The notes under the pieces were generated by a model. The model ran no database searches. It saw only the letters and a list, made by a program, of their open reading frames with translations, and was not told where the DNA came from. A DNA stretch of 64,000 nt from the NCBI GenBank assembly GCA_019057385.1, contig JAHQJS010000005.1, positions 224,799 to 288,798 of the forward strand, in the 5' to 3' direction. Shown here in pieces: positions 1,873 to 32,758 of the stretch. This stretch comes from Candidatus Borrarchaeum weybense (GTDB lineage: Archaea > Asgardarchaeota > Sifarchaeia > Borrarchaeales > Borrarchaeaceae). A program made the translations under genes and the position numbers. The number at the start of each line of letters is the position of its first letter. Position 1 is the stretch's first letter.

Positions 1873-4047
1873 CTATGCGTGTTCTCCAGTTAGATTTTCG
1901 GCAATTTCAGTAACTTTTCTTAGATCTTTATCTTTAATACGACCGTTTTGGTGTAATGCCTCTAGACCTTTTTTTAATTCTGGTACAAATTCTTCTTTTG
2001 AAAGCAAGTTCTGCGTGCTTACCGCTTTTTTTGTAAACTCGTTTAATTGTTTCTTTGAAACGATTAATTTTTCAAATTTCTCTTTCAGAGCATGAAAAGA
2101 ATCCGTTGCATAAACTTTCAAGTTTTTGTTGATTAACTTTTCAGAGGTTCCGGTGGCCATTGAAATAAACTGCATAGGTGGATAGACCAGAAGGCGTGAT
2201 GTATCCTGAGTAGGATCTAAGAATTGTGCAAGATAAATTGGAACGTCAACCTTCTGTGCCTGTTTAAATTTTAAAAGATTAGAGAGAACAAATTTCTTAA
2301 ATTGTTCTTCTTCTTCAAGAAGACGTTCTTTTTTGCTGTTAATAAACTCGATAAGTTGATTAGATTTCTCTGCAATCTTTTTTGTAATATCGACCAACTC
2401 GACAATTAGGCTATCTCTTTCAGTCTCTATCTCAGAGAGTTGTTTTTGTTGTTCGCTCATCAGTTTTGTTATTGTCTTGTTTCTATCGACTTCTGTTTTT
2501 TCTATAACTTCTCTTTGTTCTTTCATTAGACGTTCTATATTTTCATTTTGTTCCTTTGTTACACGCTCAACATTTTCATTCAAATCATTTATCTTATTTT
2601 TTGCCTCGTGTTCGATTGCGTTTATCTTCGATTGGGCGTCATTCTCAATAGAAGATAATTCTTTATTGCCTTCCTTTATGCGGGATTTTAATTCTTTTAT
2701 CTCGTTTCTGCTAGCATCTTTCATATGAGACTCCATTGAATTAGCGAGACCACTTATCTGAATTTCGAGGATGTCCTTTACGTCGGCAAATTGAAAGTTT
2801 TTAGTTTTTATATCATCGAGTTGTCCCTGAACTGAACTGGTCATATCGCTAAAGCGGTTTAATAAAGTCTCTAACGTACTGCCAATACTAGTTTTTAGGA
2901 AATTATTTGCATTTAGATTCCTTGCAGTATTTGTATCAGCGATCTTTTTTTCTTTTTGTTCCAAAACGACAGTAATTTGTCTGTCAGTATCCTCTCTTAA
3001 TCGCCTGATGGTTTCTTTATATTCAATTCTAGTTTCATCTAAATGACGGGTCGTGCTTGATCTAACTTCTATAATTTTTTCATCCCATTCCTGCTTCTTA
3101 GCACCAATTTTCATGTCTGTGTTTTCTTTTGTCCTCTGAAGTATAGCACCGTACTTATTGTTCAGTTTTTCGATCTCTTGCTCAATTTTATTTGTGAATT
3201 CGCTTCTTTTTCTCGAAATGAGCGCTTGGATAGTGGGTAAAGTCTTCATATTTTCCTCAATTGTATGAAAGGCCTCATCAAAGGTTACAGTGACCTGAGA
3301 TAGTTCATCTTTTGAGAGTTCGAATGGTAACTCTGTAAATTGTGGTATTGAACGTGGTTTACTAAGCCAGTAAAGTTCTGTAATATCCTCCAAATACTTG
3401 AGAGTGCTAAGGGTATATACAAGATGTTTCTCAGCACTCAGATCTGCTAAGAAATTTTCAACACGTGTAAATGCACTAAGGTAGTCTGAAGTTTCGGAAA
3501 CCGATAACATACTTTCAAAATCAGTTAAAATAAGTGAAGTTGTGGTCGTTACGGTTGTTGGGACTGTGAACGTGTCCACCAGCAACGCGCCAGTCCTATA
3601 AGGTAATACCCATATTGGAACATGAAATACTAAAAGAGATTCAAGAGTTTCTCTTTTCTTTCTATCGTCTTCACATAGAATGAATATCGTTGCAAGCTCA
3701 GTGTTAAGATCTACTTCCGTATACTTTTGTTCTTTTTGTTCTAAATATGGGAATTTTTCAATTAAAAATGGAATTCGTGTTTCAATTGTGAAGAGTTCTG
3801 AAGATGGAACCTCTTCGGTTATGGAGGTGGTAGTAGTGGATACCTTATCTATTTGACTTGTGTATGCTCTCCTTATGTTATGATCAGGATCAACATCTAT
3901 CGTCAGAATATGATCATCATGTACAATTGTCTTACTTAAAATGAACATACCTGGAGGTAAATTTGAAAATTCGTCATCTGAAATCTCGATGGTTTCAGTT
4001 TTAGAACACTTTGGACATGTTACTTTGAGGTCATTTTTCATATCCAC
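1873..4047 (-). CDS. large coiled-coil protein with N-terminal zinc-ribbon-like module
   Basis: 724-aa ORF; N-terminal CPKC...HxxH; about 350 aa of E/K/Q-rich heptads between two globular segments. Confidence 0.7.
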   Translation of the reverse strand: MDMKNDLKVTCPKCSKTETIEISDDEFSNLPPGMFILSKTIVHDDHILTIDVDPDHNIRRAYTSQIDKVSTTTTSITEEVPSSELFTIETRIPFLIEKFPYLEQKEQKYTEVDLNTELATIFILCEDDRKKRETLESLLVFHVPIWVLPYRTGALLVDTFTVPTTVTTTTSLILTDFESMLSVSETSDYLSAFTRVENFLADLSAEKHLVYTLSTLKYLEDITELYWLSKPRSIPQFTELPFELSKDELSQVTVTFDEAFHTIEENMKTLPTIQALISRKRSEFTNKIEQEIEKLNNKYGAILQRTKENTDMKIGAKKQEWDEKIIEVRSSTTRHLDETRIEYKETIRRLREDTDRQITVVLEQKEKKIADTNTARNLNANNFLKTSIGSTLETLLNRFSDMTSSVQGQLDDIKTKNFQFADVKDILEIQISGLANSMESHMKDASRNEIKELKSRIKEGNKELSSIENDAQSKINAIEHEAKNKINDLNENVERVTKEQNENIERLMKEQREVIEKTEVDRNKTITKLMSEQQKQLSEIETERDSLIVELVDITKKIAEKSNQLIEFINSKKERLLEEEEQFKKFVLSNLLKFKQAQKVDVPIYLAQFLDPTQDTSRLLVYPPMQFISMATGTSEKLINKNLKVYATDSFHALKEKFEKLIVSKKQLNEFTKKAVSTQNLLSKEEFVPELKKGLEALHQNGRIKDKDLRKVTEIAENLTGEHA

Positions 4048-17777: not shown

Positions 17778-18083
17778 ATGGTTAAATTTCCGTCAATTAT
17801 ACGTGCGTACTGTCCTTTTTGTCGTCGTCACACCACACACGACGTCACAGAAGTGAAATCTAAGGCCAGAAGAACCCTTTCTAAAGGACAACGTCGAGCT
17901 GAACGACATAAAAAAGGATATGGAAACAAAGGTAAGTACTCAAAGAAAGCAATTACACAAGCGAAAATGGCTTCAAAAACATCAAAGAAAGTAGATTTAC
18001 GCCTTAAATGTCAAGACTGCGAAAAAATGCATCCGAGGAGTTATCCTAGAACTAAGAAGTTTGAAATAGTAAAAATGGTTTAG
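17778..18083 (+). CDS. rpl44e: 50S ribosomal protein L44e (eL42)
   Basis: YCPFCRRHTTH...KKVDLRLKCQDC. Confidence 0.95.
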   Translation: MVKFPSIIRAYCPFCRRHTTHDVTEVKSKARRTLSKGQRRAERHKKGYGNKGKYSKKAITQAKMASKTSKKVDLRLKCQDCEKMHPRSYPRTKKFEIVKMV

Positions 18084-18125
18084 AAATCTCGCTCTATAAA
18101 GAACTCTCAATTACTTTTTAATTTT

Positions 18126-23775: not shown

Positions 23776-23882
23776 TGGCGGGTCCGGCGAGATTTGAACT
23801 CGCGATCGCCCAGCAACATCGATATGATGGTTGCAATCAGGCTTAGGAGGCCTGTGCCCTATCCTGGCTAGGCCACGGACCC
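23776..23882 (-). tRNA. tRNA-Arg(CCU) with one intron at about 45/46 (23807-23835)
   Basis: GGGTCCG acceptor, A20, CAGGC-CTCCTAA-GCCTG anticodon arm, G73, encoded CCA; 29-nt hairpin insert in the variable region. Confidence 0.9.
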
Positions 23883-23969: not shown

Positions 23970-24107
23970 TGGCGGGTCCGATGGGATTCGAACCCATGAG
24001 TCGACGCACTCCTCCGAATTGAGGGAGAGCATTTCCGGCTTCGAAGGCTTACGCCCTAGACACAATGTGTCAAGGTCGGCGCCTCATCCAGGCTAGGCCA
24101 CGGACCC
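23970..24107 (-). tRNA. tRNA-Arg(UCG) with two introns (29/30: 24049-24076; variable region: about 24000-24031)
   Basis: Removing 28- and 32-nt hairpin inserts gives a 78-nt cloverleaf with CCGGC-CTTCGAA-GCCGG; exact register of the second intron is ambiguous. Confidence 0.88.
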
Positions 24108-27204: not shown

Positions 27205-27518
27205 ACATTAATAGAATATTTTCATTATTTAACAGAAGTCTAACCCCTCAAAAAGAGACATTTGCTTGAAAACAAGCTTATAGTGAACCTCAAATTCGTT
27301 TTAAGTTACTGAAATATTTGTATAAGGCGTTAATATTTTAAATGAATTAATGGATGATACTTTGTCCTTTTCATGTAAGAATAACAAAAGGACTCTAATC
27401 CCATTTCAAGAACCCAATCATTTTATTGATTATTGAACTCAAAAACTGGCAAGTAGGCTGCACTCTAAGAAAAAGAATTAGCAATTACTTGTTAAGGTCA
27501 TTAGGAGGAAAGAGTATA

Positions 27519-30506
27519 TTGAAAATGTCAAGAAAATTTACGCCAGTATCTATTGAAGAAACGATTTTGAAATTTTGGGAGGATAATAAGATCTATCAAA
27601 AAACGAAAGATTATCGAAAGGGCAAAGAAAAGTTTTACTTCTGCGATGGTCCCCCTTATACGACTGGGAGCATTCATTTAGGCACTGCATGGAATAAAAT
27701 CATCAAAGATTTCTTCCTCAGATACAGGCGCATGAGAGGTTATGACGTCTATGATCGCCCAGGGTATGATATGCACGGATTACCCATTGAAGTCGCTATT
27801 GAGAAGAAACTGGGCATCGAAACGAAAAAGCAAATCGTTTCATTTGGCGTGGAACGCTTTATTGAAGAATGTAGAGCATTTGCGATTGAAAACCTCAATA
27901 AGATGACAGAACAATTTAAAAGGTTAGCTGTGTGGATGGATTGGGAAGATCCGTACATGACAATCAAAGATTCTTATATCGAGGGTGCTTGGTGGGCACT
28001 TAAGAAAGCGTATGAAAAGGATCTTCTATACAAAGGCACGAGAGTATTGAATTCTTGCCCTAGATGTGAAACTGTTCTCGCTAAGCATGAGTATGAGTAT
28101 AAGACAGTTGGAGATCCTTCAATTTTTGTAAAATTTCAACTAAGAGACACGCCAAATGAATATTTCATAGTTTGGACAACGACACCTTGGACTCTCCCTA
28201 GCGACTTAGCAGTTATGGTACACCCAGAGTTCGAATACGTTCGTGCTCAGGTTGAAGATGAAATCTGGATCATTGGAAAGTTTGTCTCAGTAGGTATTAT
28301 TTCAGCAATGCTTGAAAAAAAATTCAAGGTAATCGAAGAAGTCACAGGTGAAATACTGCGGGAAAGAGGACTCCGTTATATTCATCCGCTCATTGAAGAA
28401 GTTCCTATTATGCAGGAATTTTATGAAAAATATCCGGAAGCACATTCTGTATTATTGAGCAGTGAGTTTGTAACGAAACTGCAAGGTACTGGTATCGTTC
28501 ATAGCTCTCCTGGGGCTGGACCTGAGGACTTTGAGGTAGGAACAAGATATGGACTTCCTCCTTTTTCGCCACTTGATGAAGCTGGACGTTTTACTGAAGA
28601 GGCTGGAAAATACGCTGGATTATTTGTTAAAGATGCAGATCCTATCATAATTGAGGATTTAAGGAGAAAAGGTCTGCTTCTTGCGACTCATCGAGTTGAA
28701 CACGAGTATGCTCATTGCTGGAGATGCAAGAGCCCTTTGATATTTCAAGCTACAAGCCAATGGATGTTGAATTTAACGAAAGAAAAAGAAAAGATTCTTG
28801 CAGAAAATGACAAAGTTAAATGGTCTCCAGATTGGGCAGGTAGTCAGAGTTTTAGGAGCTGGTTAGAAAACCTGCAAGATTGGTGCATTAGTCGACAAAG
28901 ATATTGGGGTATACCTCTACCGCTCTGGATTTGCGATGCATGTGAATCTATTGAGGTTATAGGATCAAGAAAAGAACTATTAGGTATGTATGGAAAACCT
29001 GTTGATGATTTTCACCGACCTTGGATTGATGAGGTAACATGGGTTTGTGCCTGTGGTGGTACCTTTCGAAGGGTACCCGATGTATTAGACGTTTGGCTGG
29101 ACAGTGGCGCAGCAACATGGGCTATCTTGCCCTATCCTGAAGATCCTAAAACCTACGATTACTGGTGGCCTGCCGACTTCATTTTAGAAGGTAAAGATCA
29201 AGTTAGAGGCTGGTTCAACTCACAAATCTGTCTAAGTGTTGTAGCAAACGATAGGAGACCTTACGAGGCAGTTTATATGCATGGTTTTGTTGCAGATACC
29301 GAGGGACGGAAAATGAGCAAATCTTTAGGAAATGCAATTGAACCCAGTGCCGTTATTGAGAAGTATGGCTCCGAAGCGTTTAGATTCTATTCTTTAGCTA
29401 CACCTCCAGGCGAAGATATGAAATTCGATTTTAAAACTCAACAGGATTACTTCAAAATTCTGAATATTCTTTGGAACACTTACATGTTCGCAATATCACG
29501 AGTCAAAGAGTCCAACTTTAATGTACAGGACCATTCTCTCGATACTGCTGAACTTCAGATAGAAGATAATTGGCTTATTTCGCGTTTCCACTCTGCACTT
29601 AACAAGATGACCCGCGCCTTCGAAGCAATGCGCCCGGGAGATACAATTCCCATTATGCAGGAATTAATTGTTGAAGACATAAGTAGATGGTATATTCGCC
29701 TAATCCGAGAACGCACATGGATTTCTGAGTCGGGATCAAGCAAAGCAACTGCACTTACTACCCTTGTAACTGTCCTCACAGAAACTGCCAAGATGTTTGC
29801 TCCTGTTCTCCCAATAATAGCAGAATCAGTCTATCAAAATTTCATTCGTGAACAATATCCTGATTTGCCTGAGTCTATCCATATGTGCGATTGGTCTGAA
29901 GTTAACGAATCATTCCGTGATGAAAAACTAGAAAATGCTATGAAAGACGCACGAAAAATTGTAGAACTTACTCTAGCGCTTCGAGATGAGCATAATATCA
30001 AATTAAGATGGCCTTGTAAGAGACTCGTTGTGATATCGAAAGAAGGTTTTGGTGATATATCAGAAGTAATTCCCGCAATCGTTCACGAGGCAAATGTAAA
30101 AGATGTGCTTGTAACTGAAACGTTACCTAGTTCAACAGAACATTTAGTTGGTATGGTAAGCGATTCATTTGACCTCTACCTCGATTTAGAAATCACTGAT
30201 GAAATTGCCTCAGAAAGACTTGTAAGAGAATTCATGCGCCAAGTACAATTTACTCGAAAGAAAAACAGACTTAATGTAAGTGATCGTGTTGACCTCATTG
30301 TAGTAACTCAAGATGACAAAATCAGACAGTATTTAACAGAGTGGCGAGAAGAAATCATCGCAAAAGTCGGAGCGCAAAACTATGAGGCACAAAAGAACGA
30401 TATAGAAGAAGATTTTAAAGATCACTACCCCATATTCAGTGAATTGCAGTATGAGAATGCCAAAGTCAAAATATATATGAAAAAAACTTCCCTTTCTTCT
30501 AAATGA
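27519..30506 (+). CDS. ileS: isoleucine--tRNA ligase (archaeal/eukaryotic type)
   Basis: DGPPY..IHLGT, WTTTPWTLP, WCISRQRYWG and KMSKS; start TTG 27519 or ATG 27525 after GGAGG. Confidence 0.97.
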   Translation: MKMSRKFTPVSIEETILKFWEDNKIYQKTKDYRKGKEKFYFCDGPPYTTGSIHLGTAWNKIIKDFFLRYRRMRGYDVYDRPGYDMHGLPIEVAIEKKLGIETKKQIVSFGVERFIEECRAFAIENLNKMTEQFKRLAVWMDWEDPYMTIKDSYIEGAWWALKKAYEKDLLYKGTRVLNSCPRCETVLAKHEYEYKTVGDPSIFVKFQLRDTPNEYFIVWTTTPWTLPSDLAVMVHPEFEYVRAQVEDEIWIIGKFVSVGIISAMLEKKFKVIEEVTGEILRERGLRYIHPLIEEVPIMQEFYEKYPEAHSVLLSSEFVTKLQGTGIVHSSPGAGPEDFEVGTRYGLPPFSPLDEAGRFTEEAGKYAGLFVKDADPIIIEDLRRKGLLLATHRVEHEYAHCWRCKSPLIFQATSQWMLNLTKEKEKILAENDKVKWSPDWAGSQSFRSWLENLQDWCISRQRYWGIPLPLWICDACESIEVIGSRKELLGMYGKPVDDFHRPWIDEVTWVCACGGTFRRVPDVLDVWLDSGAATWAILPYPEDPKTYDYWWPADFILEGKDQVRGWFNSQICLSVVANDRRPYEAVYMHGFVADTEGRKMSKSLGNAIEPSAVIEKYGSEAFRFYSLATPPGEDMKFDFKTQQDYFKILNILWNTYMFAISRVKESNFNVQDHSLDTAELQIEDNWLISRFHSALNKMTRAFEAMRPGDTIPIMQELIVEDISRWYIRLIRERTWISESGSSKATALTTLVTVLTETAKMFAPVLPIIAESVYQNFIREQYPDLPESIHMCDWSEVNESFRDEKLENAMKDARKIVELTLALRDEHNIKLRWPCKRLVVISKEGFGDISEVIPAIVHEANVKDVLVTETLPSSTEHLVGMVSDSFDLYLDLEITDEIASERLVREFMRQVQFTRKKNRLNVSDRVDLIVVTQDDKIRQYLTEWREEIIAKVGAQNYEAQKNDIEEDFKDHYPIFSELQYENAKVKIYMKKTSLSSK

Positions 30507-30590
30507 CAAAGGTGTGGAAGAACTTCAAATAATGGAAATGGCGAGTGATCGAAAGATATTAAATAAAACACCTAATATTTCGTTACATGA

Positions 30591-30788
30591 GGGTCCGTGG
30601 CCTAGCCAGGTTAGCAGCGCTTCAATGTGCTGACCGAGGGGCGCCGGCCTTATATGACCTCGTCCCATACAAAGCAGGCCTAAGATAGCCGGAGACTGCC
30701 TGTTTCTTGCTATTACCGGCAGCCGAAGATCGCGGGTTCGAATGTCTTGAGCAAATCGCTCATTTCGAAAAGCCCGCCGGACCCACCA
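30591..30788 (+). tRNA. tRNA-Ile(UAU) with four introns (30614-30638, 30655-30686, 30695-30728, 30743-30771)
   Basis: Removing four BHB-bounded inserts gives a 78-nt cloverleaf GGGUCCGUGGCCUAGCCAGGUUAGGGCGCCGGCCU-UAU-AAGCCGGAGAUCGCGGGUUCGAAGCCCGCCGGACCCACCA with A73. Confidence 0.85.
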
Positions 30789-30868
30789 CTTTCTTCTTTT
30801 TAATGAATATTTTTATTCTCTATACTATCATTTTTCAAGAAACATTGAAAAGGTCATATTAAGAGGTA

Positions 30869-32758
30869 ATGACCATGTCCCCCTACAGGCAATTCGCAGA
30901 GGAATGCATTATACTTACACAGAAAACCCTTCAAGCTGTCTTTCCAGAACTATCAGTAACACTCAATCATGAAATTCCGGCTAAATTAGAGTTTGGAGAG
31001 TTGGCAGTTCCTGTTTTTCATATCGCAAAGAAAATAAACAAAAAACCCAAAGATCTTGCAGAAATTCTCATTGAAAATATCAACCCTTCAAATTCACGCT
31101 TCATAAAAGAAGTAGTAATAGGTGGAGCAGGCTATCTAAATTTCTTTGCAAATTATGATTCCTTTGCAAATCTCGTTATAAACTCAATAAGAACCCTGGA
31201 TACAAGTTATGGAAAAAGTGAAGCGAAGAAAAAGGAAAAAATTATAGTAGAATACTTGAGTCCAAATCCAAATTCTCCTTTGCATATCGGTCATGCACGA
31301 AATGCAATTCTAGGCAGTTCACTAGTCAAAGTTTTGCAAACACAATCTCATGATGTTTGTTCTCACATATATATCGATGATGTTGGTCGACAGGTTGCGA
31401 TATGTGTACAAGGTCTACGGATGGTAGATAGAGACACTCAGCCTTCAGACATGAAGTCAGACCAATTTGTAGGAACAATTTACACAATAACAAATGCACT
31501 TACTGAAATTCAGAAGGCAAAAAAGGAACAAAATGACTTAGCTGAATGGGAATCAATCGCAGAAGAATTAAAAAAAGCACAGCCTAGTATTTTCGACCAG
31601 ATTAGTAATAACTCAGAAAATATCGACTTAGATGCGGAAATATCGACCCTCATATCTCTTTATGAAAATCAAGATGAACAAACTGTTCAACTTTTCAGAA
31701 GTCTTGTTGATTTAGTTCTTGGAGGATTTAAGGAGACCTTCAAAACAATTGATATAGCTTTCGAAAGCTATGATTGGGAAAGTTCGTTCATCTGGGATGG
31801 AAGTGTTACAAAGATTTTAAACGAACTAAAAATGACACCTTTTGTTACAGAACTCGATGGTGCATTAGTCTTCGATTGTGAGAAAGCTGCAACTGAATTT
31901 AATATTAAAGAGAGTTTGGGGGTTAAAGAAACTCATGAAATTCCTCCTATGACTTTAATGAGATCTGATGGCACGACTCTTTATACAACACGGGATATAG
32001 CATACAGTAAATGGAAACTTGATCAATCAGATCGCGTAATAAATGTTATAGGGAAGGAACAGACACTTCCACAACTTCAGATAAGAATAGCTTTGTATGT
32101 ATTAGGTGAAGATGGTAGCAGACAGATTCATTATGCCTATGAACTTGTTAAACTTCCAGAATTCAAAATGTCAAGTCGAAGGGGACGTTATATTGGTTTT
32201 GATGATCTAATAGATGAGGCGACAACGAGAGCTCTAGAGGAAGTTAACACCCGTTCACCGCATTTATCCGAAGATGAGAAAAGAAGTATTGCTGAAGTAG
32301 TTGGGATTGGTGCTGTAAAGTATTCTATCTTAAACGCCGTGCCGACCAAAATTGTGACATTCACATGGAATAAAGTACTCGATTTTGAGCAGAATAGCGG
32401 GCCTTTCATTCAATATGCACATGCAAGAGCATGTAATATTCTTAAAAAAGCAAAAAAAACTCCTAAAACAGCCAACTACAATTTGGTAGATGAAGAATTA
32501 GAAAAACTTCTTGTCCAAAAACTTTCACTATTTCCAGAAATTATATCGAAAGTGGCTGAGGAATTACGTCCAGACATTGTATGTGAGTACGCAAACAACC
32601 TAGCATCGATATTTAACTCATTTTATGCTTCTATACCGGTATTAGCAGCTGAAACCGATGAATTAAGGAATTTACGTTTATTAATTGTTAATAGTGTGCG
32701 AATCGTGTTAAGAAATGCCTTGAAATTGATGGGAATTGTTGCCCCATCGAGAATGTGA
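30869..32758 (+). CDS. argS: arginine--tRNA ligase
   Basis: SPNPNSPLHIGHARN, RSDGTTLYTTRDIAY, KMSSRRG, QYAHAR, C-terminal RM. Confidence 0.97.
   Translation: MTMSPYRQFAEECIILTQKTLQAVFPELSVTLNHEIPAKLEFGELAVPVFHIAKKINKKPKDLAEILIENINPSNSRFIKEVVIGGAGYLNFFANYDSFANLVINSIRTLDTSYGKSEAKKKEKIIVEYLSPNPNSPLHIGHARNAILGSSLVKVLQTQSHDVCSHIYIDDVGRQVAICVQGLRMVDRDTQPSDMKSDQFVGTIYTITNALTEIQKAKKEQNDLAEWESIAEELKKAQPSIFDQISNNSENIDLDAEISTLISLYENQDEQTVQLFRSLVDLVLGGFKETFKTIDIAFESYDWESSFIWDGSVTKILNELKMTPFVTELDGALVFDCEKAATEFNIKESLGVKETHEIPPMTLMRSDGTTLYTTRDIAYSKWKLDQSDRVINVIGKEQTLPQLQIRIALYVLGEDGSRQIHYAYELVKLPEFKMSSRRGRYIGFDDLIDEATTRALEEVNTRSPHLSEDEKRSIAEVVGIGAVKYSILNAVPTKIVTFTWNKVLDFEQNSGPFIQYAHARACNILKKAKKTPKTANYNLVDEELEKLLVQKLSLFPEIISKVAEELRPDIVCEYANNLASIFNSFYASIPVLAAETDELRNLRLLIVNSVRIVLRNALKLMGIVAPSRM

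What the first reader, a model, noticed from the sequence alone, without database searches (positions are those of the whole stretch)
27519..32758. tRNA-Ile(UAU) apparently recruited from tRNA-Arg, located between ileS and argS
Seen: the anticodon is fixed as UAU by the canonical intron pairing (C32-U33-U34-A35 with UAAG). The first 20 nt are identical to tRNA-Arg(CCU) in this window and the anticodon stem CCGGC/GCCGG equals that of tRNA-Arg(UCG), but the Arg determinants are changed (A20 to U, C35 to A) and the discriminator is A73 rather than G73. Known: most archaea read AUA with agmatidine-modified tRNA-Ile(CAU) made by TiaS; UAU anticodons are the eukaryotic solution and rare in archaea. 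Inference: a tRNA-Arg(UCU) copy beside argS switched identity by anticodon shift, giving a TiaS-independent route for AUA decoding.
Basis: partly seen in the sequence, partly recalled or inferred. Interest (0 to 1): 0.78.

Follow-up and report, generated by a model that had tools for sequence, protein, structure and literature searches.

The report
Four-intron Asgard tRNA-Ile(UAU), ileS-linked
This is a real isoleucine tRNA gene with the anticodon UAU, cut by four introns, in an Asgard archaeon that lacks the usual archaeal AUA-decoding enzyme TiaS; it is the local copy of an old gene that follows ileS in at least five Asgard families, not a recently converted arginine tRNA.

Summary
Window 30591-30788 (+) encodes a tRNA that ARAGORN and Rfam miss. 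Removing four bulge-helix-bulge introns (21/22, 37/38, 45/46, 59/60) gives a perfect 75-nt cloverleaf plus encoded CCA, with anticodon UAU and A73.

The genome is a Borrarchaeaceae (Asgard) assembly, 100% complete by marker genes. It has no TiaS. I found only an initiator and one elongator CAU tRNA. ATA makes up 30% of its Ile codons and exchanges with ATT/ATC, never with Arg codons. So TiaS-independent AUA decoding is supported.

The proposed origin, an Arg(UCU) copy beside argS that shifted its anticodon, is not supported:
- The same gene lies 40-240 nt downstream of ileS in five TiaS-less Asgard families.
- These copies share an identical anticodon arm and an alignable 37/38 intron, and most share the D-loop and 45/46 intron sites.
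- argS is the neighbour only in this family.
- A separate tRNA-Arg(UCU) exists.

The Arg-like look is real but comes from three Borrarchaeaceae-specific base-pair changes (4:69, 12:23, 13:22). A tree of the tRNA bodies does not resolve the question.

Earlier notes of this scan report Asgard tRNA-Ile(UAU) without TiaS on other genomes. I found no paper reporting it. New here are the conserved ileS linkage and a T-loop intron gained within the genus.

The parts
27426..30506 (+). ileS (IleRS, 1026 aa as the longest ORF). It is the conserved upstream partner of the tRNA.
   Evidence: ORF. Best PDB matches are IleRS (1ile, E 1e-191). The IleRS C-terminus ends 40-240 nt upstream of tRNA(UAU) in five families.
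30556..30565 (+). A/T-rich TATA-like box (ATATTAAATA), 26-35 nt upstream of tRNA position 1. Possibly the tRNA's own archaeal promoter; this is inferred only.
   Evidence: Read directly. No test was run.
30591..30788 (+). tRNA-Ile(UAU) gene: 5 exons, 4 introns, encoded CCA.
   Evidence: ARAGORN calls tRNA-Ile(tat) on the spliced sequence.
30591..30613 (+). Exon 1: positions 1-21 (acceptor 5' strand, U8 G9, D-stem 5' strand GCCU, D-loop AGCCAGGUUA).
30614..30638 (+). Intron 1 (25 nt) at 21/22 in the D-loop. Relaxed BHB: central helix H 3/4 pairs, inner helix h' 5/5.
   Evidence: H becomes 4/4 in L027 and L030 through a change at position 17a.
30639..30654 (+). Exon 2: positions 22-37 (D-stem 3' strand GGGC, G26, anticodon stem CCGGC, C32 U33 U34 A35 U36 A37).
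30655..30686 (+). Intron 2 (32 nt) at the canonical 37/38 site. Full hBHBh' motif: outer helix h 4/4, central helix H 4/4.
   Evidence: The intron aligns across five Asgard families.
30687..30694 (+). Exon 3: positions 38-45 (A38, anticodon stem 3' strand GCCGG, A44 G45).
30695..30728 (+). Intron 3 (34 nt) at 45/46 in the variable loop. HBh' type: H 3/4, h' 5/5.
30729..30742 (+). Exon 4: positions 46-59 (AUC, T-stem 5' strand GCGGG, UUCGAA).
30743..30771 (+). Intron 4 (29 nt) at 59/60 in the T-loop. h 4/4, H 4/4. Gained within the genus.
   Evidence: Present in G000 and G050/L027; absent from L030 (G031) and L028 (G041), whose T-loop reads UUCGAAG without interruption.
30772..30788 (+). Exon 5: G60, T-stem 3' strand CCCGC, acceptor 3' strand CGGACCC, A73, CCA.
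30869..32758 (+). argS (ArgRS, 629 aa). It neighbours the tRNA only in this family.
   Evidence: ArgRS was found next to the tRNA only in family f1 loci.
23779..23882 (-). tRNA-Arg(CCU), used for comparison. One intron at 45/46.
23973..24107 (-). tRNA-Arg(UCG), used for comparison. It has a 29/30 intron inside the anticodon stem and a second insert in the variable region.

Best explanation
This is the Borrarchaeaceae orthologue of an old Asgard tRNA-Ile(UAU) gene that sits immediately downstream of ileS.

How it most likely works: the gene is transcribed as a precursor of about 198 nt. The archaeal splicing endonuclease and ligase remove four BHB introns. The mature 75-nt tRNA is charged with isoleucine by IleRS and reads the frequent codon AUA. 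This replaces the TiaS / agmatidine-tRNA-Ile2(CAU) system, which this genome and its whole family lack.

Shown here: the gene structure, the orthology, the absence of TiaS, and that ATA means Ile. Inferred: the splicing itself, charging by IleRS, and some modification of U34 that would stop AUG from being read.

The resemblance to the genome's arginine tRNAs comes from three lineage-specific base-pair substitutions (4:69, 12:23, 13:22) on a body that is otherwise of the Asgard Ile(UAU) type.
For: - Structure. A perfect cloverleaf follows removal of four BHB introns, and ARAGORN calls tRNA-Ile(tat). All 21 stem pairs are kept in six distinct orthologues, six with compensatory changes.
- Orthologue search. 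The exact pattern CCGGCCTTATA-N(10-40)-AGCCGG hits 9 of 400 Asgard genomes and gives no control hits. All hits are in TiaS-negative families f1, f3, f12, f13 and f20.
- Synteny. tblastn and direct reading show ileS ending 40-240 nt upstream, on the same strand, in all five families, including copies with extra introns that the pattern missed (G012, G023, G022, G011).
- Shared intron. The 37/38 introns align across the families (yGrCCnCGyy...ACA...CUrAGr).
- TiaS. PF08489 gives no hit in this genome (100% complete by markers), while all four archaeal control genomes are found. It is also missing from the four other genomes of the family. tblastn with three Asgard TiaS proteins gives nothing below E 0.05.
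- Codon meaning. ATA is 27.1 per 1000 codons, 30% of Ile codons. Of 23 ATA codons that differ between the window and Ca. Borrarchaeum yapensis, 12 are ATT or ATC and none is an Arg codon. In IleRS, ATA positions align with I/V/L in 17 orthologues.
- Gene count. Only one UAU-anticodon gene was found. A separate tRNA-Arg(UCU) exists at contig C5:430786-430891.
Against: - Outside positions 34-37, the 60-nt core differs at 4 positions from the genome's own tRNA-Arg(GCG). It differs at 6 from the nearest cross-family Ile(UAU) orthologue and at 14 from the genome's own Ile(GAU).
- A neighbour-joining tree of the bodies never recovers all Ile(UAU) genes as one group (0 of 1000 bootstraps).
Expression, splicing, charging and modification are therefore untested.
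- My own tRNA scanner found about 44 genes and did not find Tyr(GUA) or Pro(GGG). A heavily interrupted CAU gene could have been missed in the same way.
Confidence: 0.82

Rival explanations
1. Chimera. The gene is the old ileS-linked Ile(UAU) orthologue, but in the Borrarchaeaceae ancestor its 5' exon (positions 1-21) and the paired D-stem and acceptor positions were overwritten by gene conversion from a tRNA-Arg gene.
For: - All three Borrarchaeaceae-specific pair changes (4:69, 12:23, 13:22) produce the state found in Arg(CCU) and Arg(UCG).
- Exon 1 differs from Arg(CCU) at one position only.
- The body is as close to the genome's Arg genes as to its cross-family orthologues.
Against: - The changes on the 3' side (G23, A69) lie in other exons, so one conversion tract does not explain them.
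- The family f12 orthologue already has G9 and U13, so only 12:23 and 4:69 need to change.
- In G031, Ile(UAU) has A4 while that genome's Arg genes keep U4, so there is no ongoing homogenisation.
- By eye, the upstream flanks are not similar.
- With about 20 body types in the genome, a three-pair coincidence is not very improbable. This is my own rough estimate, not a test.
Confidence: 0.15
2. A duplicate of tRNA-Arg(UCU) next to argS changed C35 to A, lost its Arg determinants and became an Ile tRNA in this lineage.
For: - Nt 1-20 are identical to Arg(CCU), and the anticodon stem equals that of Arg(UCG) and Arg(GCG).
- The four best intron-aware alignment scores against all tRNA genes found are all Arg genes.
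- In the TiaS-positive same-class genome G009, a tRNA-Arg(GCG) sits upstream of argS.
Against: - Orthologues with the same anticodon arm, a homologous 37/38 intron and ileS linkage exist in four other families that have non-Arg D stems and no adjacent argS.
- Arg(UCU) is only the fourth closest Arg gene, with 9 core differences against 4 for Arg(GCG).
- The closest Arg genes lack 21/22 and 37/38 introns.
- U20 is also present in the family f3 orthologues.
- The G009 ArgRS is only 33% identical over the N-terminal part compared, so that synteny is weak.
Confidence: 0.05
3. The tRNA is charged with arginine, or AUA is reassigned, or the gene is a non-functional relic.
For: The body is Arg-like. 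No expression data are available.
Against: - ATA exchanges with ATT and ATC and never with Arg codons. It aligns with I/V/L in orthologues.
- ATA is 30% of Ile codons, and no other decoder was found.
- The gene is under purifying selection, with compensatory changes in six stem pairs.
- C35, a principal ArgRS determinant in the model organisms studied (my own knowledge), is absent.
Confidence: 0.03

Closest known systems
tRNA-Ile(UAU) of Nanoarchaeum equitans and Candidatus Korarchaeum cryptofilum
   Same: An archaeal tRNA-Ile with a UAU anticodon, in genomes where CAU plus TiaS would be the usual AUA decoder. PMC6000648 found tRNA-UAU only in these two of 167 archaeal genomes. The Korarchaeum gene also has an intron.
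   Different: This one is in an Asgard lineage. It has four introns instead of none or one. It is syntenic with ileS across five families. The Korarchaeum gene resembles its own tRNA-Ile(GAU) (PMC6000648), whereas this one does not (14 of 56 core differences).
Eukaryotic cytosolic tRNA-Ile(UAU)
   Same: A UAU anticodon reading AUA, and an intron at 37/38 next to the anticodon. The orthologues I extracted from five Asgard families, including this one, all have a 37/38 intron.
   Different: In eukaryotes the anticodon is modified to pseudoU-A-pseudoU (PMC8879553), and by my own knowledge the intron is required for that modification. Neither point is tested here. The three extra introns are of the archaeal non-canonical type.
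Mycoplasma mobile tRNA-Ile(UAU) (PMC3575796)
   Same: A prokaryote that lost the C34-modifying enzyme (TilS there, TiaS here) and decodes AUA with a UAU anticodon.
   Different: It is bacterial and has no introns. Whether IleRS has co-adapted here is untested.
Multi-intron tRNA genes of Asgard archaea and Thermoproteales (bioRxiv 10.64898/2026.10.13.758758)
   Same: BHB introns at canonical and non-canonical sites. That preprint reports up to five per gene in Asgard archaea and 2.12 per gene in Borrarchaeaceae, half of them missed by tRNAscan-SE.
   Different: The preprint does not mention UAU, Ile or agmatidine. The gain of the T-loop intron within the genus and the intron shared across families are specific to this locus.
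tRNA gene recruitment (anticodon shift between acceptor families), known from organelles and eukaryotic nuclear genomes (my own knowledge)
   Same: A tRNA whose body looks like that of another amino-acid family.
   Different: The defining expectation is that no orthologue with the new identity exists in sister lineages. That expectation fails here.

Membership tests
tRNA (cloverleaf) | 7-bp acceptor stem, 4-bp D stem, 5-bp anticodon stem and 5-bp T stem, a 7-nt anticodon loop with U33 and a purine at 37, and a UUCRA-type T-loop | tested here: met
   The spliced sequence folds as a cloverleaf and ARAGORN calls tRNA-Ile(tat). All 21 of 21 pairs are kept in six orthologues.
Archaeal BHB (protein-spliced) tRNA introns | Two 3-nt bulges separated by a 4-bp helix, flanked by at least one further helix | tested here: met
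   At 37/38 and 59/60 the central helix H is 4/4 and the outer helix h is 4/4. At 21/22 and 45/46 H is 3/4 and the inner helix h' is 5/5, the relaxed form. The 21/22 helix is 4/4 in two sister genomes.
Archaeal BHB (protein-spliced) tRNA introns | Introns are actually removed from the RNA | not testable with these tools
TiaS-independent AUA decoding by tRNA-Ile(UAU) | Genomic anticodon UAU | tested here: met
   It is identical in nine orthologues.
TiaS-independent AUA decoding by tRNA-Ile(UAU) | No TiaS gene | tested here: met
   PF08489 gives no hit in this genome while the controls are positive. It is 0 of 4 in the rest of the family. tblastn is negative.
TiaS-independent AUA decoding by tRNA-Ile(UAU) | No tRNA-Ile2(CAU) | tested here: inconclusive
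   Only an initiator and one elongator CAU gene were found on the archaeal contigs. My scanner is incomplete, since it did not find Tyr or Pro(GGG).
TiaS-independent AUA decoding by tRNA-Ile(UAU) | AUA is used and means Ile | tested here: met
   ATA is 27.1 per 1000 codons. ATA exchanges with ATT and ATC. ATA positions align with I/V/L.
TiaS-independent AUA decoding by tRNA-Ile(UAU) | Charged with Ile, and U34 modified so that AUG is not read | not testable with these tools
   This needs aminoacylation assays and mass spectrometry of the tRNA.
tRNA recruited from another acceptor family (Arg to Ile) | No orthologue with the new identity in sister lineages; the gene is nested within the donor family | tested here: not met
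   ileS-linked Ile(UAU) orthologues with a homologous 37/38 intron occur in four other families.
tRNA recruited from another acceptor family (Arg to Ile) | Body sequence groups with the donor genes with support | tested here: inconclusive
   4 differences to Arg(GCG) against 6 to the family f12 Ile(UAU). Bootstrap support for Ile(UAU) plus Arg(GCG) is 21%.

The most novel reading that the evidence does not exclude
ileS and tRNA-Ile(UAU) form a co-inherited two-gene module that marks a single replacement of the agmatidine system in one Asgard clade (families f1, f3, f12, f13 and f20). The conserved 37/38 intron, whose 5' half is alignable across these families, would be needed to modify U34/U36, as it is in eukaryotes. 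Eukaryotic AUA decoding by intron-containing tRNA-Ile(UAU) would then be an inheritance from Asgard archaea.
Probability: 0.2. Interest if true: 0.8.

Novelty: new member of a known kind. Interest (0 to 1): 0.45.

Why it matters
Most archaea read AUA through the enzyme TiaS acting on a CAU tRNA, whereas eukaryotes use an intron-containing tRNA-Ile(UAU). Here the closest archaeal relatives of eukaryotes are seen using the eukaryote-like solution across whole families. That makes the origin of eukaryotic AUA decoding testable.

For this locus the value is more modest. The attractive story of an Arg tRNA caught switching identity next to both synthetase genes does not hold. What it adds are two concrete facts: the tRNA is conserved downstream of ileS in five families, and a fourth intron entered the T-loop within one genus. 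The locus is also a warning for annotation, because standard finders miss the gene entirely.

Tried and rejected
- ARAGORN (default, and with -i) and Rfam at gathering threshold miss the gene or mis-call neighbouring tRNAs.
- The loose pattern CTTATA-N-TAAG-NNN-SSSSS gave mostly chance hits, no more than its reversed control. Nine of the ten regions fetched from it were coding or otherwise not tRNA genes. Only G053 was real.
- The intron-aware global alignment over-fits splice sites. For example, it inflates identity to Ile(GAU). I used it only for ranking.
- The neighbour-joining tree of 56 core positions is unresolved and cannot decide the origin.
- Concerted evolution between Ile(UAU) and the Arg genes is not seen at 4:69 in G031.
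- A CAU candidate at contig C3:11139 turned out not to look like a tRNA. It lies in a longer GC-rich region.
- The IleRS comparison with PDB only shows an ordinary IleRS. It matches the Thermus thermophilus, bacterial IleRS2 and eukaryotic cytoplasmic enzymes better than the Staphylococcus aureus one, which says nothing about the anticodon.
- Cutting loci for the G009 tRNA hits failed once and was replaced by the fetch from genomes.
- No complex prediction or protein fold was run. Neither would bear on the question.
Full report
**What is there**

The region between ileS (27426-30506) and argS (30869-32758) contains a GC-rich stretch at 30591-30788 that ARAGORN and Rfam do not report. Read by eye and checked by script, it is a tRNA gene in five exons. 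The introns are:
- 30614-30638, 25 nt, D-loop, position 21/22
- 30655-30686, 32 nt, canonical position 37/38
- 30695-30728, 34 nt, variable loop, position 45/46
- 30743-30771, 29 nt, T-loop, position 59/60

The spliced 75-nt sequence plus encoded CCA folds as a perfect cloverleaf, and ARAGORN calls it tRNA-Ile(tat).

Each intron sits in bulge-helix-bulge geometry. At 37/38 and 59/60 the 4-bp central helix and the outer helix are both complete. At 21/22 and 45/46 the central helix has 3 of 4 pairs and the inner helix is 5 bp. The mismatch at 21/22 becomes a pair in two sister genomes through changes at position 17a.

**The organism**

ArgRS relatives place the window in Candidatus Borrarchaeum / Sifarchaeum, which are Asgard archaea. 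The assembly is 4.18 Mb in 8 contigs, with 37% GC, 100% completeness and 7% contamination.

A recent preprint reports that Asgard tRNA genes are heavily interrupted, with up to five inserts per gene. It gives 2.12 per gene for Borrarchaeaceae, half of them missed by tRNAscan-SE. Four introns in one gene are therefore in line with the lineage. That preprint does not mention UAU or isoleucine.

- tRNA-Arg(CCU) (23779-23882, minus strand) shares nt 1-20 exactly with this gene.
- After their 29/30 introns are removed, tRNA-Arg(UCG) (23973-24107, minus strand) and tRNA-Arg(GCG) (contig C5:217804-217967) have the same anticodon stem, CCGGC/GCCGG.
- The Ile gene has U20, A35 and A73, where the Arg genes have A20, C35 and mostly G73.

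It is exact only for this genome, though. Sister genomes have C or U at 17a, and one has A4:U69.

**AUA decoding**

- The TiaS family PF08489 has no hit in this genome, while all four archaeal control genomes are found.
- tblastn with three Asgard TiaS proteins finds nothing below E 0.05.
- Among 301 Asgard genomes, 172 have TiaS. Whole families lack it: f1 (this one, 0 of 4), f3 (0 of 4), f10 (0 of 68), f12 (0 of 19), f13 (0 of 3), f20 (0 of 3) and f23 (0 of 7).
- My own scanner finds about 44 interrupted tRNA genes on the archaeal contigs. They include an initiator CAU, one elongator CAU with an eMet-type acceptor stem, Ile(GAU), five Arg genes including a separate Arg(UCU), and only one UAU gene.
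- ATA is 27.1 per 1000 codons and 30% of Ile codons.
- Between the window and Ca. Borrarchaeum yapensis, 23 aligned ATA codons differ. Of these, 12 are ATT or ATC and none is an Arg codon. AGA exchanges with CGA and AGG.
- In IleRS, ATA positions align with I, V or L in 17 Asgard orthologues.

AUA is therefore a frequent Ile codon, and this tRNA is the only decoder found for it.

**Origin**

Within the genome, the body is closest to the Arg genes. Outside positions 34-37, the 60-nt core differs at 4 positions from Arg(GCG), at 7-9 from Arg(UCG), Arg(CCU) and Arg(UCU), and at 14 from Ile(GAU). The gene has clear orthologues elsewhere, however.

- The exact pattern CCGGCCTTATA-N(10-40)-AGCCGG hits 9 of 400 Asgard genomes with no control hits. 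All hits are in TiaS-negative families f1, f3, f12, f13 and f20.
- In every case, IleRS ends 40-240 nt upstream on the same strand.
- Further copies that the pattern missed, because they have extra introns in the anticodon stem, lie downstream of ileS in G012, G023, G022 and G011.
- No tRNA follows ileS in the TiaS-negative family f10 or in the TiaS-positive families f6, f7, f9, f15 and f16.
- ArgRS is adjacent only in family f1.
- The orthologues share G26, the whole anticodon arm, A73 and encoded CCA. They all have a 37/38 intron, and the 5' half and 3' end of that intron align across the families. Most also have introns at the D-loop and 45/46 sites.
- In families f3 and f13 the intron places a G opposite U34.
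- Outside Borrarchaeaceae the D stem is GCUC/GAGC, or GCUU/GAGC in f12. That is the type seen in this genome's own Ile(GAU) and in the candidate Ile2(CAU) of the TiaS-positive genome G009.

The Arg-like look of the Borrarchaeaceae gene thus reduces to three derived pairs: 4:69, U12-A23 to C12-G23, and C13-G22 to U13.G22. The body tree is unresolved. Ile(UAU) plus Arg(GCG) appears in 21% of bootstraps, and all Ile(UAU) genes together in 0%. In G031, Ile(UAU) has A4 while that genome's Arg genes keep U4, so the genes are not being homogenised.

I conclude that the gene is an old ileS-linked orthologue. Partial conversion of its 5' part by an Arg gene remains possible (about 0.15). A de novo recruitment of Arg(UCU) beside argS is unlikely (about 0.05).

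**Dated intron gain**

The T-loop intron is present in G000 and G050 (ArgRS 88-89% identical to each other). It is absent from G031 and G041, whose T-loop reads UUCGAAG without interruption. That is exactly the sequence predicted for the spliced product here.

**Comparison with what is known**

tRNA-Ile(UAU) in place of TiaS is known from Nanoarchaeum and Korarchaeum (PMC6000648) and, in bacteria, from Mycoplasma mobile (PMC3575796). Eukaryotes use an intron-containing tRNA-Ile(UAU) (PMC8879553).

I found no paper that links TiaS, agmatidine or UAU with Asgard archaea. Earlier notes of this scan report the same arrangement on at least 37 other Asgard genomes.

This is therefore a new member of a known kind. 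Its new details are the conserved ileS linkage, four introns and a dated intron gain.

**Limits**

Splicing, charging and the modification of U34 are inferred. My tRNA census is incomplete.

Noticed in passing
Genome contig C5:217804-217967 (-), about 7 kb before the window start: tRNA-Arg(GCG) has A73, the anticodon stem CCGGC/GCCGG, the T stem GCGGG/CCCGC and a 29-nt intron at 59/60. It differs from Ile(UAU) at only 4 of 56 core positions. The Arg(GCG) of the same-class genome G009 has G73 and a different anticodon stem. Sequence flow from Ile(UAU) into Arg(GCG) is as conceivable as flow the other way.
   Followed up: partly
L048 about 2560-2740 (-), = G009:C275 about 17907-18087: In the TiaS-positive same-class genome G009, a two-intron tRNA-Arg(GCG) sits about 420 nt upstream of argS on the same strand, and an intron-less tRNA-Arg(CCG) lies downstream. 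G009 also has a three-intron CAU tRNA (L060) with an Ile-type body, a candidate tRNA-Ile2.
   Followed up: partly
Loci L063-L087 (IleRS of 41 Asgard genomes): The window's IleRS is 45-52% identical to IleRS of the TiaS-negative families f3, f10, f12 and f13, and 36-40% identical to most TiaS-positive families. The exceptions are f9 and f15 at 48-49% and f16 at 43-44%. This could reflect species phylogeny or co-evolution of IleRS with the AUA decoder.
   Followed up: no
window 30655-30686 and orthologues in L128-L136: The 5' half of the 37/38 intron (yGrCCnCGyyCy..ACA) is conserved across five families, well beyond what the BHB motif needs. A role in anticodon modification is conceivable.
   Followed up: no
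Genome contig C1 (179 kb, 39% GC), e.g. C1:19435-19896: Twelve intron-less tRNA genes without encoded CCA, six of them in one tandem array, unlike the interrupted archaeal genes on the other contigs. The contig is probably foreign: a contaminant, virus or plasmid. It carries its own tRNA-Met(CAU).
   Followed up: no
Genome C5:191113-191309 (+): The elongator tRNA-Met(CAU) appears to have four introns, two of them inside the anticodon loop (about 32/33 and 37/38). Its T arm, GCGGG UUCGAAG CCCGC, is identical to that of Ile(UAU).
   Followed up: partly
Many tRNA genes, e.g. C4:78186-78320, C8:121901-122036, C5:201622-201801: Introns at 59/60 in many tRNA genes of this genome are about 29-31 nt long and share a form: a short hairpin followed by YYGAAA(N). 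They look like one intron family.
   Followed up: no
Genome C3:11040-11400 (+): A GC-rich stretch next to tRNA-Ser(GCU). I did not identify it. It may be a structured RNA such as SRP or RNase P RNA.
   Followed up: no
Genome C6:305682-305772 (-) and C7:881440-881511 (-): Two different genes read as tRNA-Cys(GCA). One has a D-loop insert and G37.
   Followed up: no
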